A stretch of DNA of 11,682 bases from Vibrio cholerae ATCC 14035. GTDB taxonomy: Bacteria; Pseudomonadota; Gammaproteobacteria; Enterobacterales; Vibrionaceae. The notes beneath the pieces were generated by a model. It was not told the DNA's origin, searched no databases, and worked only from the letters and a program-made list of their open reading frames with translations. Both the position numbers and the translations under genes were made by a program. This document shows, piece by piece, positions 1,056-7,916 of the stretch. Each line of letters begins with the position of its first letter. The first letter of the stretch is position 1. The DNA lies in the NCBI RefSeq assembly GCF_000621645.1, contig NZ_JHXR01000041.1, positions 1 through 11,682 on the forward strand. Direction: 5' to 3'.

Positions 1056-1559
1056 TTACGCTCCCTTAGCCAGAGATTGCTTAGACTTGAGGTACTCTTC
1101 TTGAGTCACTCCCATTTTGCGACACAGCGCGATCTCTTCTGGGTCAAGTTCGTCGGCTTGTACAGAAGTTTGCGTGGTGGTCACTTTTGAGTTGGTTGCA
1201 ATCGCTGGCGCGGTTTCAACAAACTTCTTGAACTGCTCAATGCCACCTTCCGCACGACACATGCTGAGGAACATTTCTTTGTTCGCAGGGGCAACTTTGC
1301 CAGCCTTGATCGCATCTTCTACCAGCGCATCAATTTCAGATTCCTGAATGGCCTTTAATGCCGCTTCAGCAGTTTCAGCGCGGTTAAGTGCTAGCTGATA
1401 GGTTTCTTTAGGCACGGCCACATTGAGATCAATGTTTGATGCACGGTTAAGCGCAATGTCTTTCTCTGACTTCAGAGAGTTGATTGCGATTACCGCGTCT
1501 TGCTCGGTTGCGGTTTCGGCCAAGCCAAGCGCAGCGAGAATAAGCTGTGGTAGCTTCAT
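1056..1559 (-). CDS. Head scaffold protein, Mu gpZ-like (C-terminal part of the I reading frame, with its own internal start)
   Basis: The 167-aa ORF MKLPQLILAALGL... is alanine/glutamate-rich and looks helical. GAGGAA lies 6 nt upstream of the ATG at 1559. The frame is continuous upstream with the protease-family sequence (see 1056..2011). Confidence 0.75.
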   Translation of the reverse strand: MKLPQLILAALGLAETATEQDAVIAINSLKSEKDIALNRASNIDLNVAVPKETYQLALNRAETAEAALKAIQESEIDALVEDAIKAGKVAPANKEMFLSMCRAEGGIEQFKKFVETAPAIATNSKVTTTQTSVQADELDPEEIALCRKMGVTQEEYLKSKQSLAKGA

Positions 1560-2011
1560 TTCGTTTTCCTCTTGTCGGTTGAGGGCGGGTACATTTAGGT
1601 TGGGATTGTTGGTAAAACCTGAACTTTCGATGCTGTAGATAACACCTGTTTCCTTATCGTAACCAAACGCTGGGGAATAGAAGGCGTACTTCTCTCCTCA
1701 ATCATTTCTCGGCCTTCGGCATTCAATTCCACAAACCCCCAAATCTCGCCGTTGCGATTTTCCAGTGACGTGATCCAGCCGTAAGCGGGTGCAGGCTCAC
1801 CGTTTGGCGCTTTGATATGGGTTGAATGTTCTACATCGAATGGGCGCTTTTTAGTGAAGCGCTGGATAATGGCGTTAGGGTTGGAGTTGTTCCAAGTGCG
1901 TCCATCAATCCCTTGAAATGTTCCGGCCGGAATAAGCGGAAGCCAAACACCTGCGGTGGCGGCATCCACATTTGCCATGTTGAAACAAAGGGCAGTAAGA
2001 CAATTAGCCAT
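1056..2011 (-). pseudogene. Mu gpI-like head maturation protease/scaffold gene, split by a one-base frame change near 1685-1700
   Basis: The frame from ATG 2011 (GGAG 8 nt upstream) reads the I-family N-terminus (LPLIPAGTFQGIDGRTW...EPAPAYGWI...NGEIWG...). After ...GREMIEER it becomes nonsense and stops at 1595-1597. The -1 frame is closed by TGA 1700..1698. From 1697 it reads GEKYAFYSPAFGYDKETGVIYSIESSGFTNNPNLNVPALNRQEENE and continues without a stop into MKLPQL (1559) down to 1056. Confidence 0.8.
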
Positions 2012-2087
2012 TGATTACTCCGGTTCATAAGCACTACATAACAACCTCCTTGGTGGTCGGTTGATATGAACTTGTTTTGGTGGAGTA

Positions 2088-2135
2088 AGAATGCGCCAAT
2101 GCGACAACCGAGCCGAAATAACGGCAGTTGCTCAA
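2088..2135 (-). promoter_or_regulatory. Putative activator-dependent late promoter upstream of the I gene (Mu P_I analogue)
   Basis: The minus-strand motif TTGAGCAACTGCCGTTATTTC (2135..2115) is 19/21 identical to a motif upstream of the endolysin gene. A -10-like hexamer CATTCT (2093..2088) follows after exactly 21 nt, the same spacing as at the other copy. The site lies between the terminator and the I start. Confidence 0.5.
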
Positions 2136-2190
2136 ATTGATAGGGTTGGGATACGTTTTGGGAGGGGAGAAAAGCGTGGTTAAGATTACC

Positions 2191-2230
2191 GCAAAAAAAC
2201 AGGTTGGCAAGCGAAACGCAAAAGCCAACC
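2191..2230 (-). terminator. Rho-independent terminator closing the lysis-packaging-F-cassette transcription unit
   Basis: On the minus strand, GGTTGGC (2230..2224) pairs with GCCAACC (2208..2202), with an inner GCG/CGC pairing, followed by TGTTTTTTTGC (2201..2191). The plus-strand reading has no U-tract, so it is unidirectional. Confidence 0.7.
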
Positions 2231-2343
2231 AAAAACACAACGCCGAACCTAGTTTAAACCATGTTTAAATCGCGCCAGATTGATTTAAACTTTTTTATTG
2301 ATACCTTTGCATGCCTTTTGGCTTTCTGTCGCGTTAGAGAGCG

Positions 2344-2628
2344 TTACATAAAATCACCAACTAAGTTGGCATGAATCCTTACCGCGAGATCATATTCACA
2401 TAGAAAAATATCATTCACCTGGTTCTGCATATCCGCCAAGATTTCTTCTTGGTTCTTTTCCACGACACGGTATCCAAAAAGCTCCGCCGAATTTTTAAGG
2501 TCCTCCAATTGCTTGCTAGATAGCACACCAAGCTTATAGCCATTGTCCATATCGACGGCATCTTTAAACTGCTCATCCATTACCAAGCCAATGCATGACA
2601 TAGGCAAATAAACATAGAGCTGACGCAT
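2344..2628 (-). CDS. Hypothetical small acidic protein (94 aa), last gene of the accessory cassette
   Basis: I prefer the ATG at 2628..2626 (GGAG 8 nt upstream, TAATG overlap with the upstream stop) over the GTG at 2643 used in the ORF track. The protein has 16 Asp/Glu against 8 Lys/Arg and no TM segment or signal peptide. A hand count of 2341-2640 gives about 41% GC. I recognise no family. Confidence 0.6.
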   Translation of the reverse strand: MRQLYVYLPMSCIGLVMDEQFKDAVDMDNGYKLGVLSSKQLEDLKNSAELFGYRVVEKNQEEILADMQNQVNDIFLCEYDLAVRIHANLVGDFM

Positions 2629-3263
2629 TAACTTAACTCCCACATTGCTTCAGTATGGTTAATGATCGCTGCATTCACGCCACCCACAGAAGCCTGCTGA
2701 ACATTCTGATTGCGTTGATTAAACATGATTGCATTGGATAGCACGCCTGCGATAGAGAGCTTGAATGACTCTAGCAACCCAGTAGTGTAAGAGGAGGTAG
2801 TCCAAGAACGCATTAAGCGATCAACTTCAACAGCTTGAGTCGAACCTGAACGAGTAGCCTTAACCTCGCCATCAACCAATATTGATATTGTGGCACCAAC
2901 ACGCTTGAGTAGATAAACGTGACGCGCTGATGGATTAAAGCCTGATGTTGACCATGTCACAACATAACTACCCGCATAAACTTGGATGCCATCGCCATTG
3001 GACAAAGACCGAAAGAAGTTATCAATCGTTGAACCAGAGAAAATGGATTGGTAAGCCGATGGATTTAATCCACTCACCGCCACTTCCAATTCAAAATCAA
3101 CACCTGCTGGAACAACCAAAGGCGAACTCAACAAAGCGTATTGCGTTAAACCATCAAACCTTGGGTAGTAAAGCTCAGAAGCAGGTAGAGAAAGACGCTC
3201 ACAACGCAATGCACTTGATTCAACATAGGTGACTGGCTCGCATCCACTTTCTTCATAAATCAC
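2628..3263 (-). CDS. Hypothetical protein (211 aa), possibly a concanavalin-A-like/LamG-type jelly-roll
   Basis: The GTG start at 3263 overlaps the upstream stop (GTGA), with AGGGGGTGG just upstream. The protein is beta-rich. Its pattern resembles Laminin_G_3 domains (FDG..QYA...P....F.LE......YQSIFS......F....G..W......H.Y.L.R.G....I.VDG). This fold call is from memory of the pattern only. Confidence 0.6.
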   Translation of the reverse strand: MIYEESGCEPVTYVESSALRCERLSLPASELYYPRFDGLTQYALLSSPLVVPAGVDFELEVAVSGLNPSAYQSIFSGSTIDNFFRSLSNGDGIQVYAGSYVVTWSTSGFNPSARHVYLLKRVGATISILVDGEVKATRSGSTQAVEVDRLMRSWTTSSYTTGLLESFKLSIAGVLSNAIMFNQRNQNVQQASVGGVNAAIINHTEAMWELS

Positions 3264-3772
3264 GCACCACCCCCTAGTATCTCCGTTGAGTAGGTTTCTT
3301 GCTCTGCGATCAACAACAGCTTAGTGCAAGTAAAGTCGCGGCCATTAGCGCGAATTTGTATGGCCGTGCCATTGGTCGCAATGTTTCCGTTTTTATCGAC
3401 ACTGAAGAAAGTCGAGAACGTCATCACATCCTCATCCACTTCTAAGCTCCGGTTCTGCACCAGTCGGTTGCCTTCAGTGCCTAAAAAATCCAGCTCCAAT
3501 GAACGGGTTGCCGCAGAGCCTGGAAAGCTACCGATAAAGTTTGCTTTAAAGTGCAAGCTGGCGTCATCGTTAAAACTGCGCAGCAGATTGGCTGCTGTAT
3601 CAAAGAACGGCAGCAAGCTGCCGAATATCGGCGCTGCGGCTTTGATGCGGTCAATCAAGTTGTATGTCACCCCCTGCGTGAACACCAAAGGTGATGCGGA
3701 AAAGTCAAACAACACTTCGCTCTTATGTCGATGCGCGTCTGAACCTGAAGTTAAGGGGGCTTCATAGATCAT
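3260..3772 (-). CDS. Hypothetical protein (170 aa), beta-rich, no recognisable family
   Basis: The ATG at 3772 overlaps the upstream stop (ATGA), with AGGAG 10 nt upstream. No TM segment or signal peptide is apparent. It does not resemble the Mu G/P2 S virion-morphogenesis pattern that I would expect at this position. Confidence 0.6.
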   Translation of the reverse strand: MIYEAPLTSGSDAHRHKSEVLFDFSASPLVFTQGVTYNLIDRIKAAAPIFGSLLPFFDTAANLLRSFNDDASLHFKANFIGSFPGSAATRSLELDFLGTEGNRLVQNRSLEVDEDVMTFSTFFSVDKNGNIATNGTAIQIRANGRDFTCTKLLLIAEQETYSTEILGGGA

Positions 3773-4017
3773 GCAGGCGTTACTCCTACCGTGGTTTCAC
3801 CACTGTTGGTTTTAGCCCAAACCAGATCACTGCCTGTTAGCTCATACACATAACGCTTTTGCGCTAGCATTGGGTCGCCTTCGGTGGTTACTGCTGGCTG
3901 CGTTTCTGCAACCAGCATTTGCCCGTTAACTGCTCCGCGATTCACAAATACGCCTTTCAACCCTACGTTGATTTGGCGGTATTCACTGGAGACTATTTTC
4001 ACTGCTGTGGTAGCCAT
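3769..4017 (-). CDS. Hypothetical protein (82 aa), beta-rich, first gene of the accessory cassette
   Basis: The ATG at 4017 lies 11 nt after the F stop, with GAGGAA 5-6 nt upstream. The composition is rich in Gly/Val/Thr. I recognise no family. Confidence 0.55.
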   Translation of the reverse strand: MATTAVKIVSSEYRQINVGLKGVFVNRGAVNGQMLVAETQPAVTTEGDPMLAQKRYVYELTGSDLVWAKTNSGETTVGVTPA

Positions 4018-4028
4018 GATCGTTCCTC

Positions 4029-4802
4029 TTACTGTTTTAAGGTTTCATTCAAGCGCGTCTCTTTGGCTTGCAAATCATCACTCAGCGCTTGCTCTCGTTT
4101 CTTACCTGGGTTGTAGTTCCAACCAGGCTCAATGCCTTCGGGCAATACTTCCACTTCTCCGGTGCGTTTGTTTACCCATCGCTTGTTTTGCGTATCAGGC
4201 GCGGAGGTTTTCACCTTGCCTTCAGCGATCAGGTTTTCAGCTTCCCGCTTTGATACTTGCCGAACCCAGCACTTACAGCCCCAGCCGTTGGGCGGCATAA
4301 ACTGCGCCCAAAACGGATCACCCACTGGCAGCAGAACACCATTCAAACGCACATGATCAAGCCGATGCTCACGCGATGGCCCCAACTGATAGAGCAAATA
4401 GGGCATGGCGCGCTTGGTTTTTTCGATGCGTTCCCACTGGCCTGCGGCGCGAGCGGTGCGCATGTTGGTGCGGTAAATGGTTTTTAAACGGCCTTCACTG
4501 CCCAATTGAACAAGCTTTGATTCTTGGGTGAGTGGGTCATCCATCACTTGTACGCCCCACCACCCAGACTTCACCAGTAGCGGCTTGAGCAGATCACGAA
4601 ACTGCTCAAAGGTTTGACCTTCGGCAATGGCCTGCTCAACCAACTGCTTCACCTCAACCAGCAAATCGGCATTGAGCATTTTGGCTACGGTGAAAGCGTT
4701 TGCGTGTTCCTCTTTCCACACGTCACGGTAGTCAAAGCTTGGCTTAATTCCTTTGCGCTTGAACCATTCCAGCGACTCTTTGGGCACAATGTTTTTAGGC
4801 AT
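4029..4802 (-). CDS. Head morphogenesis protein, Mu gpF / SPP1 gp7 family
   Basis: F-family hallmarks are present (NAFTVAKM..., YRTNMRTARAAGQWERI, PYLLYQ..., HRLDHVRLNG, PPNGWGCKCWV). I prefer the ATG at 4802 (AGGAG with a 7-nt spacer). The ORF-track start at 4811 has GGAG abutting the ATG. The gene overlaps the portal stop. Confidence 0.85.
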   Translation of the reverse strand: MPKNIVPKESLEWFKRKGIKPSFDYRDVWKEEHANAFTVAKMLNADLLVEVKQLVEQAIAEGQTFEQFRDLLKPLLVKSGWWGVQVMDDPLTQESKLVQLGSEGRLKTIYRTNMRTARAAGQWERIEKTKRAMPYLLYQLGPSREHRLDHVRLNGVLLPVGDPFWAQFMPPNGWGCKCWVRQVSKREAENLIAEGKVKTSAPDTQNKRWVNKRTGEVEVLPEGIEPGWNYNPGKKREQALSDDLQAKETRLNETLKQ

Positions 4803-6354
4803 CGCGCGCATCTCCTAAACCGCGAGCCTGAAACATCAGCTTCGCCATCTGTTCAACAAACTCACCCTCGCTGAGTTCCGCTTGCAAGGCAGGCAGGCCA
4901 GCCAAGAACGCATCATAACTGGCCGAGTCTTTGGCGAGCTTTAAGATCGGGTTCATAAACTCTTCGCCAGTTTCCACCCATTCGCTAACGGCTTCATCGG
5001 TCATCGCATCAACCTCCGCGTCTACGCTTTGGCTGATGCGGTTGATCGCAATACCTTGCGAATGGTTTAGGCCAACCTCTAGAGATTGCATGGAAGCTTG
5101 CGCCATAGGCACCAGCACTTCTTCTTCGTTCTCTGGCTCACTCAGGCCGAACTTATCACGCACGGATGAAGCGCTCACGCGTAGGCCACGGTCGATCAGT
5201 GGCGTTAAGCTATCGACCAGAACTTTGAGATCTTCCGGCTCTGGGATTTTGATGCGCACTTTCGGGTAATGCTCTTGCACACCCCAGTTGAGGATGATGT
5301 AAGGCTTAACCAAGAATTCATTGATGCAAGATTCGAGTTGGCGCGCATCCCACTTGGCAATATCAATCCGCACTTCGTTGTGAACGTTTGCTTGCGATTG
5401 AGAGCTGCCATTGTCGGCGGTCATGGTTTGGCCGAGTACGGCTTTTGAAATCTGTTCATCACACCAACGCGCCATGTTTTCAAATAGCGTGTCGCCGCCA
5501 TTGCCTTTGGCCGTTTCTAGCAAGTCAATCTTCATTGACTCTGGGATCACCGCACCCGCATCACTGGCGATGCGGCCAATGGCATTAATCAGCGTGCTGA
5601 TATCGCCCTCACTAGCGTTCGCGCCATACTTACCGACCCGAACCGGAATGCCGAACACTTCGGCAAACGCCCACCAATCGCGCACGGTGAACGATTTGAG
5701 CATGTACATCACTGCCACTAAGCGCGCTAGGCCATTGCGCCACACGCTGCCAGACTTAGATCGCGGCGTATGCACGATGAACTTATAAGGCTCTAGCGGC
5801 GCGCCCGTTGGGGCATCATCACTAATCAGCAAGATCTGCTCTAGGGTTTCTTGGTCTTGGCGCAGGTAACGAGGGTCAACCCACTTATAATCGCTCGGCT
5901 TCCACGGGGTTTTCTTGGTATCCCACAGCACTTGCACTACGGCAAGGCCCTTGCCTAAACCATCGAGCAAATCAAACAGCAGCTCAGGGATCATGTCGTC
6001 GGTCATGATTTCGCGCACGCGCTCTGCCATCAGCACATCATTGGCTTCATCGCTGTAGGCTTCCACGCTTGGCTCAATCGCTGCCACGGCGAGCTTACGG
6101 GTGCGCAACTGCGCTGCGTAGTGCAGGTCTCGCTCTTCCATTTCTTCCGCGAGCGTCATGTACGCTTCTGGGTCTGTGCCATCAATTACGCTACGCAGCA
6201 AGCCTGCAAGGCGCTGCGGCGTAATGGTTGAGGCCACACTGGCAGGGCGTGGGTTGCGCACGCCCGTGGTGTAAGCACGGGCAATGTCTTCGGCGAGTAC
6301 GGTTTTGTCGGCTTTGAGTGGCTGGCCGCGAGCGTCGAGAAATTGAATACTCAT
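4795..6354 (-). CDS. Portal protein, Mu gp29 (DUF935) family
   Basis: The ORF is 519 aa and its start overlaps the large terminase stop (ATGA). Size and position (terminase, then portal, then F) match Mu, and the sequence resembles DUF935 portals as I recall them. Confidence 0.85.
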   Translation of the reverse strand: MSIQFLDARGQPLKADKTVLAEDIARAYTTGVRNPRPASVASTITPQRLAGLLRSVIDGTDPEAYMTLAEEMEERDLHYAAQLRTRKLAVAAIEPSVEAYSDEANDVLMAERVREIMTDDMIPELLFDLLDGLGKGLAVVQVLWDTKKTPWKPSDYKWVDPRYLRQDQETLEQILLISDDAPTGAPLEPYKFIVHTPRSKSGSVWRNGLARLVAVMYMLKSFTVRDWWAFAEVFGIPVRVGKYGANASEGDISTLINAIGRIASDAGAVIPESMKIDLLETAKGNGGDTLFENMARWCDEQISKAVLGQTMTADNGSSQSQANVHNEVRIDIAKWDARQLESCINEFLVKPYIILNWGVQEHYPKVRIKIPEPEDLKVLVDSLTPLIDRGLRVSASSVRDKFGLSEPENEEEVLVPMAQASMQSLEVGLNHSQGIAINRISQSVDAEVDAMTDEAVSEWVETGEEFMNPILKLAKDSASYDAFLAGLPALQAELSEGEFVEQMAKLMFQARGLGDARDA

Positions 6355-7916
6355 AGTCGAATTCCTTTGCCGCGCAGATCACTGGCGTGCGGCATGTCGT
6401 CAAATCGGTTGTTTTCTTCTGCTGTACCAAAGAAGCGGCGCTGTGTTTCATCGGCATTCGCTTTGATGGTGTGCAGTTCGTAACGGGTGATGTCGGCTTT
6501 AGAAGCGAGATAAGCAAGGAAGATAGCCACCGCGCTATCACCGTGGCGCTTGTTACCATCGCTGCCTTTGGTTCGGCTGTCATCGATGCCAGGCACACCA
6601 CGATAGATTTTGATTTGCCCAAGGTCGGTGATCACATCCTCATGCTTAGGCAGCTTTATTTCGTCATCTTCGAAAGCGGCTTTGAACTTCGGCATGTTCT
6701 CACGGTAGTAGGCGACAGAGAGTATGACCTCTTCAACTTCCGCGCCATAACGGTATCGGGCCTGCTCGGCAAGGTATTGGCCGTTACCACGCGCATCGAG
6801 CTTGATGCCGTCGCGGCGAGGCAGGCGATCGCAGATGTAGTACAGCGCTTGCTCTTGCTGCTTGAATGGCACGTTCTTAAGCTCGACTAGGAACGGAACC
6901 GTTCGCTTGGTATCTGTCTCGACGGTAATCGGAGCAAACGACGTTAAGTCACCGTTACGGGCAAAGTCTTCACCGAGTGCATGGCGCAACCCTTTAGGCA
7001 AGGCTTGCAGTTGTGGGCCAACGTTCTCCACTAGCCACTCTTGCATAGTACGCATGCGCTCGGCTTCGCCTGCATTGTTGAATGCTGCGCTGCCAGTAAA
7101 GCTGATTACGGGCGCATCAGCCAAAGAGGCCGCACGCTCACGAAGACCACGGCTAATGTATGCGCCGCCGCCGTTCTTCGGCACACAGTAGTATTCTTCC
7201 AGCGCATCTTCTTCGGTGGCGGTGTCACGCAGTAGGTCACGCTTCCATTGGTCTTCGGCTTCTTGCGTCCATGTTTTGCCTTTGACCTGACAGATACGCT
7301 TATACAGACCATCGCGGCAGGCATCATCCAACGTGATGGTATGGATCGAGTAACGCTTCTTGCCTGCGCGGCTGTCTTGAATGAGCTGGTTAAATAGGTT
7401 GTCCACCCCGTTATGGGTAGAGATAAGGCGCACCTTTGCGCCCCACATGGTTAAAGCCAACGCGGCCTTGAGCACTTCTGCAAGCCGTTCATGGAATGCG
7501 GCTTCGTCAATGGTTACGCAGCCCTGCATACCCCGCAGGTTAGAAGGGTTGCTGGATAACGCTTGCACCTTAAAGCCAGAAGCGAAATAGACCACAAAGG
7601 TTAAGATTTCTTTGTTGCCATCGTCATCGAGAAAGACTTCTTCCTGAACATCTTGCGCCGCATAGTTAAACGCCTTGGCCCACATCGCTACCGCATCAAT
7701 GAATTCGCGCGCCATCTCTTTGTTGGAACCCACATAGAAATGGTGAGTGCCACCTGCGGCCTTTGACTTAGAAGCCGTGAGCGCAGCATCGGCCGCTTCC
7801 GCCCAAGTAATACCCGTCCGGCGGCTTTTCTCCGCAATCTTTAGCGGAGATTCATCAGCAATCCATCGCTTCTGGTAAGGCAGCAGCACATCTTGTTCGC
7901 GGAATTCATAGTTCAT
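6351..7916 (-). CDS. Terminase large subunit, Mu gp28-like
   Basis: The ORF is 521 aa with an N-terminal Walker-A-like KSRRTGITW and an acidic ATPase motif (VTIDEAAF). The C-terminal half is nuclease-like. It follows the DUF3486-like small subunit directly (TAA then ATG). Confidence 0.9.
   Translation of the reverse strand: MNYEFREQDVLLPYQKRWIADESPLKIAEKSRRTGITWAEAADAALTASKSKAAGGTHHFYVGSNKEMAREFIDAVAMWAKAFNYAAQDVQEEVFLDDDGNKEILTFVVYFASGFKVQALSSNPSNLRGMQGCVTIDEAAFHERLAEVLKAALALTMWGAKVRLISTHNGVDNLFNQLIQDSRAGKKRYSIHTITLDDACRDGLYKRICQVKGKTWTQEAEDQWKRDLLRDTATEEDALEEYYCVPKNGGGAYISRGLRERAASLADAPVISFTGSAAFNNAGEAERMRTMQEWLVENVGPQLQALPKGLRHALGEDFARNGDLTSFAPITVETDTKRTVPFLVELKNVPFKQQEQALYYICDRLPRRDGIKLDARGNGQYLAEQARYRYGAEVEEVILSVAYYRENMPKFKAAFEDDEIKLPKHEDVITDLGQIKIYRGVPGIDDSRTKGSDGNKRHGDSAVAIFLAYLASKADITRYELHTIKANADETQRRFFGTAEENNRFDDMPHASDLRGKGIRL

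What the first reader, a model, noticed from the sequence alone, without database searches (positions are those of the whole stretch)
2344..4017. Four-gene cassette of unknowns replaces Mu G at the F-I junction, the anti-defence hot spot of Mu-like phages
Mu has the order F-G-I. Here F (stop at 4029) is followed after 11 nt by four ORFs of 82, 170, 211 and 94 aa, and none shows the G/P2-S virion-morphogenesis pattern.

All four have SD sequences and are chained by stop-start overlaps (ATGA at 3769-3772, GTGA at 3260-3263, TAATG at 2626-2630). The unit ends with a spacer and a clean intrinsic terminator (2191-2230), just before the I gene and its putative promoter.

Composition drifts away from the phage backbone. 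My hand counts give about 57% GC in a terminase sample (7021-7200), about 51% in 3361-3540, about 45% in 2701-2880 and about 41% in 2341-2640. This suggests acquired DNA at the 3' end of an operon (moron-like).

In Pseudomonas Mu-like phages the junction between G and the protease/scaffold gene is where anti-CRISPR/aca operons sit, so this junction is a known accessory hot spot.

There are three hypotheses:
- An anti-defence operon.
- Proteins packaged in the capsid and injected (Dar/IPI-like), since they are co-translated with the head protein F.
- A capsid decoration or adhesin module.

I cannot assign any of the four proteins to a characterised system.
Basis: partly seen in the sequence, partly recalled or inferred. 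Interest (0 to 1): 0.8.

Follow-up and report, generated by a model that had tools for sequence, protein, structure and literature searches.

The report
Swappable virion adhesin-like cassette in Vibrio Mu-like prophage
The four genes after the head gene F are real, optional late genes of a Vibrio Mu-like prophage; they look like parts of an exchangeable sugar-binding attachment module carried on the phage particle, not like an anti-defence operon or a replacement for gene G.

Summary
Four chained minus-strand ORFs (82, 170, 211 and 94 aa) follow F after 11 nt, and GC falls from about 50% to 41%.

- **G is not replaced.** In 50 of 50 related loci where G was found, it lies downstream of capsid gene T.
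- **The proteins are not all unknown.** orfB is a standalone Sf6 tail-needle knob domain (PF16532, E 5e-29) that keeps the glutamate-binding residues. Such homologues in Mu-like Vibrio prophages were noted in 2013, with function unknown.
- **orfC** models as a ConA-like lectin-type jelly roll and almost always travels with orfD.
- **orfA** is a confidently modelled 82-aa jelly roll. It is homologous to a small gene placed just after T in other relatives.

An orfA-family gene is always followed by a partner built from a fibre-tip or glycan-directed domain: knob, tail-fibre C-terminal domain, or SGNH esterase. The post-F and post-T sites never co-occur, and about a third of relatives have neither. 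In siphoviruses the orfA domain sits among neck genes or is fused N-terminally to larger proteins.

The F-I junction is a true cargo hot spot; com/mom and Dam occur there in more distant relatives.

Best reading (about 0.5): a late-expressed, modular virion-surface adhesin or decoration cassette. Virion location and ligand are untested.

The parts
4029..4811 (-). Mu F-like minor head protein (260 aa), the upstream anchor. The cassette starts 11 nt after its stop.
   Evidence: PF04233 E 4e-16 and phrog_220 E 6e-88.
3769..4017 (-). orfA, 82 aa: a small seven-strand jelly-roll 'A-domain'. Proposed anchor or adaptor of the module.
   Evidence: - Family: phrog_8311 E 6.5e-58.
- Model: AF2 pLDDT 94.9, all-beta. 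PDB matches are generic cupin/jelly roll only.
- Homologous to the small gene after T in relatives: hhalign probability 93.8%, E 1.7e-7 over 80 columns; iterative HMMs converge.
- Fused N-terminally in Vibrio phage Seahorse gp37 (TM 0.93) and in about 20 other representatives.
- dN/dS 0.17.
3260..3772 (-). [quoted passage not shown] It lacks the needle shaft.
   Evidence: - PF16532 E 5.4e-29 (101.5 bits against a cutoff of 27), and phrog_1030 positions 102-264 of 268.
- PDB 3RWN and 4K6B at E 4e-28.
- Glutamate-contact residues kept: E19, K76, S124, D126 (against PMC3741392).
- dN/dS 0.09.
2628..3263 (-). orfC, 211 aa: a beta-sandwich of the ConA-like lectin/glucanase/LamG type. The family was found only in Vibrio and one Pseudoalteromonas phage, and has mosaic alleles.
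   Evidence: - phrog_6609 E 5e-111.
- AF2 pLDDT 73 with a core above 85.
- Foldseek PDB hits to GH16 glucanases, LamG, pentraxin and CBM66, E 2e-4 to 3e-3, TM 0.40-0.48.
- 14 clusters, all named ones from Vibrio.
- Present in four other phage types.
2344..2628 (-). orfD, 94 aa: the constant partner of orfC, with no recognisable family. Proposed assembly factor for orfC (inference).
   Evidence: - phrog_6699 E 2e-42.
- Follows orfC in Mu-like, PF430-3_p42, p41/H20-like and podovirus-like prophage contexts, but not in L015.
- No Pfam, NCBIfam or PDB match.
2012..2343 (-). Native gene-free F-I spacer, lying downstream of the cassette. It contains a terminator-like hairpin (2230-2202) with a U-tract (2201-2193), and presumably the late promoter of I.
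   Evidence: - 67-83% identical to the F-I spacer of cassette-less relatives.
- Hairpin fold.
- No Rfam match.
- The promoter role is inferred from phage Mu P_I (established knowledge) and was not tested.
1056..2011 (-). I (protease/scaffold), the downstream anchor. In this window it is split by a 1-nt gap near 1695 into 138-aa and 167-aa ORFs.
   Evidence: - PF10123 matches both pieces.
- The gene is an intact 324 aa in L005/L006.
- Alignments.

Best explanation
The cassette is an optional, late-expressed virion accessory module of a Vibrio Mu-like prophage. It is probably a modular surface adhesin or decoration system aimed at host surface polysaccharide.

**Proposed parts (inferred roles)**
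- orfA, a small jelly-roll domain, is the constant anchor or adaptor.
- The proteins encoded after it are exchangeable distal units. Here they are orfB, a trimeric knob, and orfC, a lectin-type beta sandwich. Sister prophages carry SGNH/GDSL esterases instead.
- orfD is a dedicated assembly factor for orfC.

**Expression (inferred)**
The genes are read as the tail end of the late lys...F transcript and translated by stop-start coupling, so they are made alongside the head proteins.

**What is shown**
- Gene reality and purifying selection.
- Domain identities.
- Modular exchange of partners.
- Two alternative insertion sites beside head genes.
- N-terminal fusion of the orfA domain in other phages.

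**What is inferred**
- Virion incorporation.
- Position on the head or neck rather than the tail.
- Glycan binding.
- The orfA-partner contact.
- The role of orfD.
For: 1. **The orfA family always comes with a partner.**
   - Post-F site: knob, or a 453-aa GDSL protein. A third gene, where present, is orfC+orfD or a 399-aa SGNH esterase.
   - Post-T site: knob, or a 178-186-aa protein homologous to the C-terminal roughly 160 aa of annotated tail-fibre proteins such as Klebsiella K64-1 S2-7, RaK2 and ICP2 gp14 (phrog_37013 E 1.4e-26).
2. **All partner types are fibre-tip or glycan-directed domains.**
   - orfB.
   - orfC.
   - SGNH esterases.
3. **The module always lies inside structural gene blocks.**
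   - After F or after T in Mu-like phages.
   - Between connector genes and Neck1/tail-completion in siphovirus contig L015 and phage Seahorse.
   - Upstream of the putative scaffold gene and the capsid gene in a V. cholerae podovirus-like prophage, as orfC+orfD.
4. **Rosetta-stone fusions.** The orfA domain is N-terminal in Seahorse gp37 and in about 20 of 150 listed representatives. One of these carries a segment matching a 'virion structural protein' PHROG.
5. **The post-F and post-T sites are mutually exclusive.** Of 32 close IMG/VR loci covering both sites, 6 carry the module post-F, 15 post-T, 11 at neither and 0 at both. My hypergeometric estimate for zero overlap is p of about 0.014, ignoring relatedness. 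This suggests one function placed at either site.
6. **Late co-expression is likely.** There is an 11-nt gap after F, three stop-start overlaps and no promoter-like site on the coding strand.
7. **N-termini track orfA.** Four unrelated partners begin M/V-I-Y-E only where an F-type orfA is present. This includes L015, where the two genes are 60 nt apart.
8. **A knob protein has been seen in virions.** A 'putative tail needle knob' protein was detected by mass spectrometry in virions of a Vi01-like myovirus (PMC10892097).
Against: - There is no direct evidence that any of the four proteins is in the virion.
- No solved phage structure resembles orfA beyond a generic cupin/jelly roll.
- The module is dispensable: 11 of 32 close relatives lack it.
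- The same junction carries anti-restriction genes in more distant relatives, so the site alone does not argue for a structural role.
- The knob homologue of T4-like phage Miller sits alone among non-structural genes.
- orfD has no assignable fold or family.
- The shared N-terminal motif is only four residues and could be a recombination scar.
- The orfC model has moderate confidence (pLDDT 73), and its TM-scores are only 0.40-0.48.
Confidence: 0.5

Rival explanations
1. The cassette encodes auxiliary receptor-binding proteins that attach to the tail (baseplate or tail-fibre tips) rather than to the head or neck. They would be encoded away from the tail genes, comparable to T2-type gp38 adhesins or to branched receptor-binding complexes.
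For: - The partner domains are homologous to tail-needle and tail-fibre tips.
- SGNH esterases are known components of tailspikes, for example G7C gp63.1 (my own knowledge).
- orfC follows the tail-fibre genes in V. anguillarum p41/H20-like phages.
Against: - In Mu-like phages the module is always beside F or T, about 10 kb from where tail-fibre genes lie in Mu-type genomes (my knowledge of the Mu gene order; that region was not examined here).
- In siphoviruses it sits in the neck block.
- No similarity to known fibre-attachment domains was found.
Confidence: 0.2
2. The cassette is an anti-defence or host-takeover operon: Acr-like inhibitors, or enzymes that neutralise host immunity, carried at a known hot spot.
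For: - The junction is variable and holds com/mom and Dam-type methyltransferase genes in more distant relatives. A retron lies inside the structural cluster of MuM16-1.
- orfC and orfD have a foreign GC content.
- orfD is small and unassignable.
Against: - The four proteins have no HTH/Aca-like partner and no PADLOC or NCBIfam hits.
- No own promoter was found.
- The folds are extracellular-type glycan-binding or esterase domains.
- The orfA family is embedded in structural modules of three phage morphotypes, and also occurs as N-terminal fusions.
Confidence: 0.1
3. The four proteins are internal head proteins, packaged with the help of F and injected with the DNA (Dar/IPI-like).
For: They are translationally linked to F, whose best PHROG is 'minor head protein and DNA pilot'. 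They are also late-expressed.
Against: - Knob, lectin-like and SGNH-plus-binding-module architectures are typical of exposed proteins.
- The same orfA-plus-partner pair works from a site after T, and in the neck block of siphoviruses.
- No similarity to known internal proteins was found.
Confidence: 0.07
4. The cassette is a lysogenic-conversion moron acting in the lysogen, for example by modifying or masking surface polysaccharide to exclude other phages.
For: - The module is optional and compositionally deviant, lying at the 3' end of an operon just before a terminator.
- Esterase variants could alter O-antigen acetylation.
Against: - By direct reading, none of the four sequences has a signal peptide or membrane segment.
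- No independent promoter was found.
- The terminator belongs to the native spacer.
Confidence: 0.08

Closest known systems
Sf6/HS1 tail-needle knob (gp9 C-terminal domain; PF16532; PDB 3RWN, 4K6B)
   Same: orfB aligns over the whole knob (E 4e-28) and keeps the four residues that hold L-glutamate in the Sf6 and HS1 trimers. Leavitt et al. 2013 listed such homologues in 'nine somewhat Mu-like Vibrio prophages', with function unknown (PMC3741392).
   Different: orfB has no N-terminal tail-plug domain and no coiled-coil shaft; only 14 residues precede the knob. It is encoded next to head genes of a myovirus and is paired with the orfA-family gene. It therefore cannot be a P22-type tail needle.
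Modular receptor-binding or tailspike systems with a conserved anchor and exchangeable distal domains (for example G7C gp63.1/gp66, CBA120, Klebsiella K64-1/RaK2 branched fibres)
   Same: A constant small unit is combined with swappable knob, lectin-like, fibre-tip or SGNH esterase units. One partner class is homologous to the C-termini of K64-1 and RaK2 fibres. A small gene follows one distal unit, as fibre chaperones do.
   Different: Here the anchor is a separate 82-aa jelly-roll protein, sometimes fused. The genes lie beside capsid or neck genes rather than in the tail-fibre block. No attachment site is known.
Capsid decoration proteins and head fibres with adhesin function (T4 Hoc, T5 pb10, phi29 gp8.5; review PMC7602432)
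   Same: These too are optional, non-essential, late genes, and their exposed domains are suited to binding surfaces. Here the genes sit beside head genes.
   Different: There is no sequence or fold relationship to any of them. Capsid binding is untested.
Anti-CRISPR/aca operons upstream of the protease/scaffold gene in Pseudomonas Mu-like phages
   Same: They occupy the same kind of place, an accessory site just upstream of the protease/scaffold gene. Content varies between relatives.
   Different: There is no Aca-type HTH gene, no own promoter and no small-inhibitor-like proteins. The domain content is of the structural or glycan-directed kind.

Membership tests
PF16532 Phage_tail_NK (Sf6-type knob domain), for orfB | Sequence match above the curated threshold, over the whole domain | tested here: met
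   101.5 bits against a cutoff of 27, profile positions 34-175 of 175. PDB 3RWN at E 4e-28.
PF16532 Phage_tail_NK (Sf6-type knob domain), for orfB | Residues contacting bound L-glutamate at subunit interfaces (Sf6 E146, K200, S248, D250) | tested here: met
   E19, K76, S124 and D126 align with them. L255 is replaced by I and K277 by L (residues from PMC3741392).
P22/Sf6-type tail needle (gp26/gp9), for orfB | N-terminal tail-plug domain plus a trimeric coiled-coil shaft preceding the tip | tested here: not met
   Only 14 residues precede the knob. phrog_1030 is matched from position 102 onward.
P22/Sf6-type tail needle (gp26/gp9), for orfB | Trimer located at the tail tip | not testable with these tools
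   Needs virion structure or biochemistry.
Mu G / Phage_tail_S (PF05069) | Any of the four proteins matches the family, or G is missing elsewhere in the phage | tested here: not met
   No Pfam match. G is present after gp36 in the near-identical prophages L005/L006 and lies downstream of T in 50 of 50 loci.
Concanavalin A-like lectin/glucanase fold, for orfC | Curved two-sheet jelly-roll fold | tested here: met
   Foldseek probability 1.0 to GH16, LamG, pentraxin and CBM66, with E from 2e-4 and TM 0.40-0.48, using a model of pLDDT 73. This is fold-level only; no sequence family matched.
GH16 glucanase (catalytic member of that fold), for orfC | Catalytic E-x-D-x(x)-E motif | tested here: not met
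   No such motif on direct reading of the orfC sequence. A binding role is therefore more likely than a hydrolytic one (inference).
Anti-CRISPR / aca operon | HTH regulator (Aca) gene in the operon | tested here: not met
   No HTH or other regulator family in any of the four proteins.
Anti-CRISPR / aca operon | Own promoter upstream of the first gene | tested here: not met
   No sigma-70-like site on the minus strand in 1900-4900, and only an 11-nt gap after F. The consensus scan is a weak test.
Anti-CRISPR / aca operon | Inhibition of a host defence system | not testable with these tools
   Needs plating assays.
Moron (independent transcription unit in a late operon) | Own promoter and own terminator, deviant composition | tested here: inconclusive
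   Deviant GC for orfC and orfD only. No promoter was found. The terminator belongs to the native spacer.
Virion decoration / head- or neck-fibre proteins | Physical presence on the outside of the capsid or neck | not testable with these tools
   Only gene position and domain types support it.
orfA-domain family (phrog_8311 / phrog_29297; uncharacterised) | Collinear jelly roll of about 82-86 aa, followed by or fused to a distal domain | tested here: met
   - hhalign probability 93.8% between the post-F and post-T subfamilies.
- 123 clusters and 211 representatives.
- Fusions are N-terminal.

The most novel reading that the evidence does not exclude
The orfA domain defines an undescribed plug-and-play display system of tailed phages. 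In this reading an 82-aa jelly-roll adaptor sits on the head or neck and accepts unrelated distal proteins (knob, lectin, fibre tip, esterase) through a short N-terminal motif. The whole unit would hop between two alternative sites in Mu-like genomes and into siphoviruses, giving transposable vibriophages a rapidly exchangeable second layer of host-surface recognition.
Probability: 0.3. Interest if true: 0.7.

Novelty: new variant of a known kind. Interest (0 to 1): 0.5.

Why it matters
**Consequences if the reading is right**
- Mu-like vibriophages would carry an exchangeable, non-tail-fibre set of glycan-directed proteins, which would affect adsorption and host range.
- Those phages include prophages in genomes attributed to Vibrio cholerae and relatives, and Aeromonas and Shewanella prophages.

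**What it would assign**
- A role to the long-unexplained standalone Sf6-knob homologues.
- A role to a small phage protein family of at least 211 sequence clusters at 50% identity.

**Practical and annotation points**
- A compact adaptor plus swappable binding or esterase domains would be a useful scaffold for phage engineering.
- The work corrects an annotation trap: a variable site that holds anti-defence genes in some relatives holds structural-type cargo here.

Tried and rejected
**Searches that found nothing**
- PADLOC and NCBIfam scans of the four proteins gave no hits.
- Profile searches of the orfA, orfC, orfD and 185-aa partner families against PDB sequences found nothing usable.
- Rfam on the whole window found nothing.
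- Literature searches for Mu-like decoration proteins, MuM16-2 and Seahorse proteomics found no experimental data on these genes.

**Comparisons that were negative or too weak**
- hhalign of the 185-aa partner class against the knob showed no relationship.
- hhalign of the orfA profile against the small ORFs next to orfC in PF430-3_p42 and in the V. cholerae podovirus-like prophage was negative.
- Against the 220-aa protein upstream of orfC in p41, only a 23-residue N-terminal match appeared (E 0.008), too weak to use.
- Against the phrog_4770 protein of L066 the match was weak (E 0.0017, probability 15%). orfA itself hits phrog_4770 at E 0.005, so this is a lead only.

**Searches with limited return**
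- Foldseek of orfA against PDB gave only generic cupins.
- tblastn of orfD against phages gave a single weak hit.

**Ideas rejected**
- 'One of the four is a divergent G' is rejected, because G is found elsewhere.
- 'The terminator was imported with the cassette' is rejected.
Full report
**Setting**

The window is the late region of a Mu-like prophage read on the minus strand.
- The gene order is endolysin, gp27-like protein, large terminase (6351-7916), portal (4795-6354, PF06074), F (4029-4811, PF04233), the four ORFs of the finding, I protease/scaffold (PF10123) and major capsid protein T (154-1053, PF10124).
- Near-identical prophages (96-98% protein identity) occur in Vibrio genomes GCA_002283955 and GCA_002284175. 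Homologues are named from V. cholerae and Vibrio spp..
- The closest deposited phages are Vibrio phage 1.028.O and its relatives and Shewanella MuM16-2, at 74-76% DNA identity over the terminase-portal(-F) region.

**Observation**

- The gap after F is 11 nt, and AAGAGGAA precedes the orfA start.
- The overlaps ATGA, GTGA and TAATG are there, and the lengths are 82, 170, 211 and 94 aa.
- The hand GC counts are right to within one percentage point.
- The hairpin at 2230-2202 with a U-tract is plausible: -17.6 kcal/mol, z = -2.2.
- The ORFs are real genes. Against the diverged orthologues in L014, dN/dS is 0.09-0.17, like F and T.

**What the cassette is not**

It does not replace G.
- In L005/L006, the same prophage with longer flanks, G (PF05069) follows gp36 downstream of T.
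- An iterative HMM found G in 50 related loci, always downstream of T and never between F and I.
- Cassette-less relatives simply have a gene-free F-I spacer of 320-390 bp.
- The 330 bp between orfD and I in the window is that same spacer, 67-83% identical to theirs.

The cassette is therefore inserted directly after the F stop codon and upstream of the native hairpin. By analogy with phage Mu, where I has its own late promoter (established knowledge), this is the 3' end of the lys...F transcription unit. No sigma-70-like promoter occurs on the coding strand in 1900-4900.

**The four proteins**

*orfB* is a standalone Sf6-type tail-needle knob.
- It matches PF16532 at E 5.4e-29, and PDB 3RWN and 4K6B at E 4e-28.
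- Only 14 residues precede the domain, so it has no needle shaft.
- The four residues that bind L-glutamate in the Sf6 and HS1 trimers are kept.
- Leavitt et al. [quoted passage not shown]

*orfC* models as a two-sheet jelly roll.
- The model has pLDDT 73, with a core above 85.
- Its best solved matches are GH16 glucanases, laminin-G domains, pentraxins and CBM66: probability about 1, E from 2e-4, TM 0.40-0.48.
- It lacks a GH16 catalytic motif on direct reading.
- Its family is small: 14 clusters, all named ones from Vibrio.
- Alleles exist that keep both termini but swap the central sandwich.

*orfD* has no recognisable family. It follows orfC in four different phage backgrounds.

*orfA* gives a very confident model of a seven-strand minimal jelly roll, pLDDT 94.9. 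Among solved structures it matches only generic cupins.

**Comparative anatomy**

I anchored 80 IMG/VR loci on F, plus loci from protein look-ups. Among close relatives the post-F site shows five states.

| Content of the F-I gap | Gap length | Loci |
|---|---|---|
| orfA+orfB | 1161 bp | L016, L017 |
| orfA+B+C+D | 2021-2060 bp | window, L005, L006, L014, L018, L031, L040 |
| orfA+B plus a 399-aa SGNH esterase | about 2325 bp (L035) | L035, L100, L101; decayed in L019 |
| orfA plus a 453-aa GDSL protein | about 1989 bp (L012, L022) | L011, L012, L013, L022 |
| Empty | 320-390 bp | most other close relatives |

orfA is homologous to a gene of 82-86 aa that lies immediately after T in other relatives.
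- hhalign of the two subfamilies gives probability 93.8%, E 1.7e-7, over 80 collinear columns.
- Independent iterative HMMs converge on the same set.
- That post-T gene is always followed by a 167-186-aa partner. The partner is either a knob (43-50% identical to orfB) or a protein homologous to the C-terminal roughly 160 residues of annotated tail-fibre proteins. The fibre matches are phrog_37013 (E 1.4e-26), Klebsiella K64-1 S2-7, RaK2 and ICP2 gp14.

Of 32 close IMG/VR loci covering both sites, 6 carry the module after F, 15 after T, 11 at neither site and none at both. My hypergeometric estimate for zero overlap is about 0.014, ignoring relatedness.

**Outside Mu-like phages**
- An orfA homologue plus an orfC homologue lie between connector genes and Neck1/tail-completion in siphovirus-like contig L015.
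- In Vibrio phage Seahorse the orfA domain forms residues 1-82 of the 285-aa gp37, in the same genomic place (TM 0.93, 36% identity).
- An exhaustive profile search found 211 representatives. Most are 81-92 aa. About 20 are longer, each with the domain at or near the N-terminus.
- orfC+orfD also occur without orfA in other phage types. In PF430-3_p42 they lie between the lysis genes and the terminase. In p41/H20-like phages they follow the tail-fibre genes. In a V. cholerae podovirus-like prophage they lie upstream of the putative scaffold gene and the capsid gene.

**A curious regularity**

Four unrelated proteins that follow a post-F-type orfA all begin M/V-I-Y-E. They are orfB, orfC, the 399-aa SGNH protein and the 453-aa GDSL protein.
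- The L015 orfC homologue has the same start even though it lies 60 nt after orfA.
- orfC homologues in phages without orfA have other N-termini.
- Post-T knobs begin MPFGKAFVYQAP, which aligns to MIYEAP.

This may be a docking peptide or a recombination scar. Four residues cannot decide between them.

**Interpretation**

Taken together, the evidence fits a modular virion-surface adhesin or decoration system better than an anti-defence operon. It comprises:
- a constant small domain, free or fused N-terminally;
- exchangeable distal units that are all fibre-tip or glycan-directed types;
- a position always inside head or neck gene blocks;
- tight late-operon coupling;
- purifying selection.

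One piece of outside support exists: a 'putative tail needle knob' protein was detected by mass spectrometry in virions of a Vi01-like myovirus (PMC10892097).

I put this reading at about 0.5. Several points remain inferred: virion incorporation, head or neck placement rather than tail, glycan binding, the orfA-partner contact, and a chaperone role for orfD.

**Rivals**
- Attachment to the tail instead of the head or neck, which is a variant of the same idea: 0.2.
- An anti-defence operon: 0.1.
- A lysogenic-conversion moron: 0.08.
- Injected internal proteins: 0.07.

The anti-defence idea keeps some weight because the junction is a real cargo hot spot. More distant relatives carry com+mom (PF25680), a Dam-type methyltransferase, a two-TM 173-aa protein or pairs of small proteins there. 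Shewanella MuM16-1 has a retron reverse transcriptase inside its structural cluster (PMC8541194).

**Novelty and score**
- The knob homologues in Mu-like Vibrio prophages were noted in 2013.
- The rest I could not find described in the library searched. That covers the orfA-domain family, its obligate pairing with exchangeable distal domains, its two alternative sites and its N-terminal fusions.
- Conceptually it is a new variant of a known kind, namely modular phage adhesin or receptor-binding cassettes.
- Interest is 0.5. It yields a concrete, testable hypothesis and a new small domain family, but no experimental support and no categorically new mechanism.

Noticed in passing
window 1056-2011 (minus strand), around 1695: The I protease/scaffold gene is split into a 138-aa and a 167-aa ORF by a 1-nt gap relative to the intact 324-aa gene of L005/L006. 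The surrounding segment is also a diverged allele (82% overall DNA identity). phrog_13230 matches the 138-aa product end to end, so the same short ORF is annotated in deposited phages. This could be a defective prophage, a sequencing error or a genuine split gene.
   Followed up: partly
window 2012-2343: A spacer of about 330 bp without genes is conserved (67-83%) upstream of I in relatives with and without the cassette. It contains the hairpin and U-tract (2230-2193). It gave no Rfam match and no sigma-70-like promoter. It probably holds the end of the lys...F unit and the activator-dependent late promoter of I.
   Followed up: partly
L066 7140-8085; L078 6037-6973; L069 7077-7886; L037/L039 6144-6665; L026 5981-6428: In more distant relatives the F-I gap carries other cargo:
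- a Com-like zinc-ribbon gene plus Mom (PF25680);
- a D12 N6-adenine methyltransferase flanked by 317-aa and 321-aa unknowns;
- a 173-aa protein that looks two-transmembrane on reading the sequence (phrog_11791; topology not tested);
- two proteins of about 77 aa.
   Followed up: partly
L066 5845-6989: The same gap in L066 also starts with three ORFs:
- a 94-aa phrog_4770 protein, the family orfA hits weakly at E 0.005;
- a 143-aa ORF;
- a 141-aa ORF whose sequence reads like a tail-fibre-assembly-type protein.
This may be a third, more distant version of the module. The link to orfA is weak (hhalign E 0.0017).
   Followed up: partly
L040 2175-2831; proteins P0012, P0014: These are mosaic orfC alleles. 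The N-terminus (MIYEESGCEP...YYPRFDGLTQYA) and the C-terminus (IINHTEAMWE) are kept while the central beta-sandwich is replaced, as expected for a specificity-determining domain swap.
   Followed up: partly
L035 1909-3111; L100 1500-2699: The C-terminal half of the 399-aa SGNH esterase (NLAPNPEFSG...GW...) reads like a carbohydrate-binding beta-sandwich module. Only the GDSL domain was confirmed by Pfam.
   Followed up: no
L005 2437-2859 and 5150-5344, compared with L006 and the window: Otherwise near-identical prophages differ in two places. L005 has a DUF5675 protein where L006 (and, on reading its sequence, the window) has a GH108-type endolysin. L005 and L006 carry an extra 64-aa gene between gp27 and the large terminase that the window lacks.
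   Followed up: no
L096 3743-4444 (Citrobacter phage Miller); L097 4755-5459 (Klebsiella phage Carvaje): Knob-domain proteins of about 233 aa occur as a lone gene on the opposite strand, with its own terminator, among non-structural genes of a T4-like phage. They also occur directly after the large terminase gene of a siphovirus. tblastn found knob homologues in 308 phage records from a wide range of phage types and genome sizes.
   Followed up: partly
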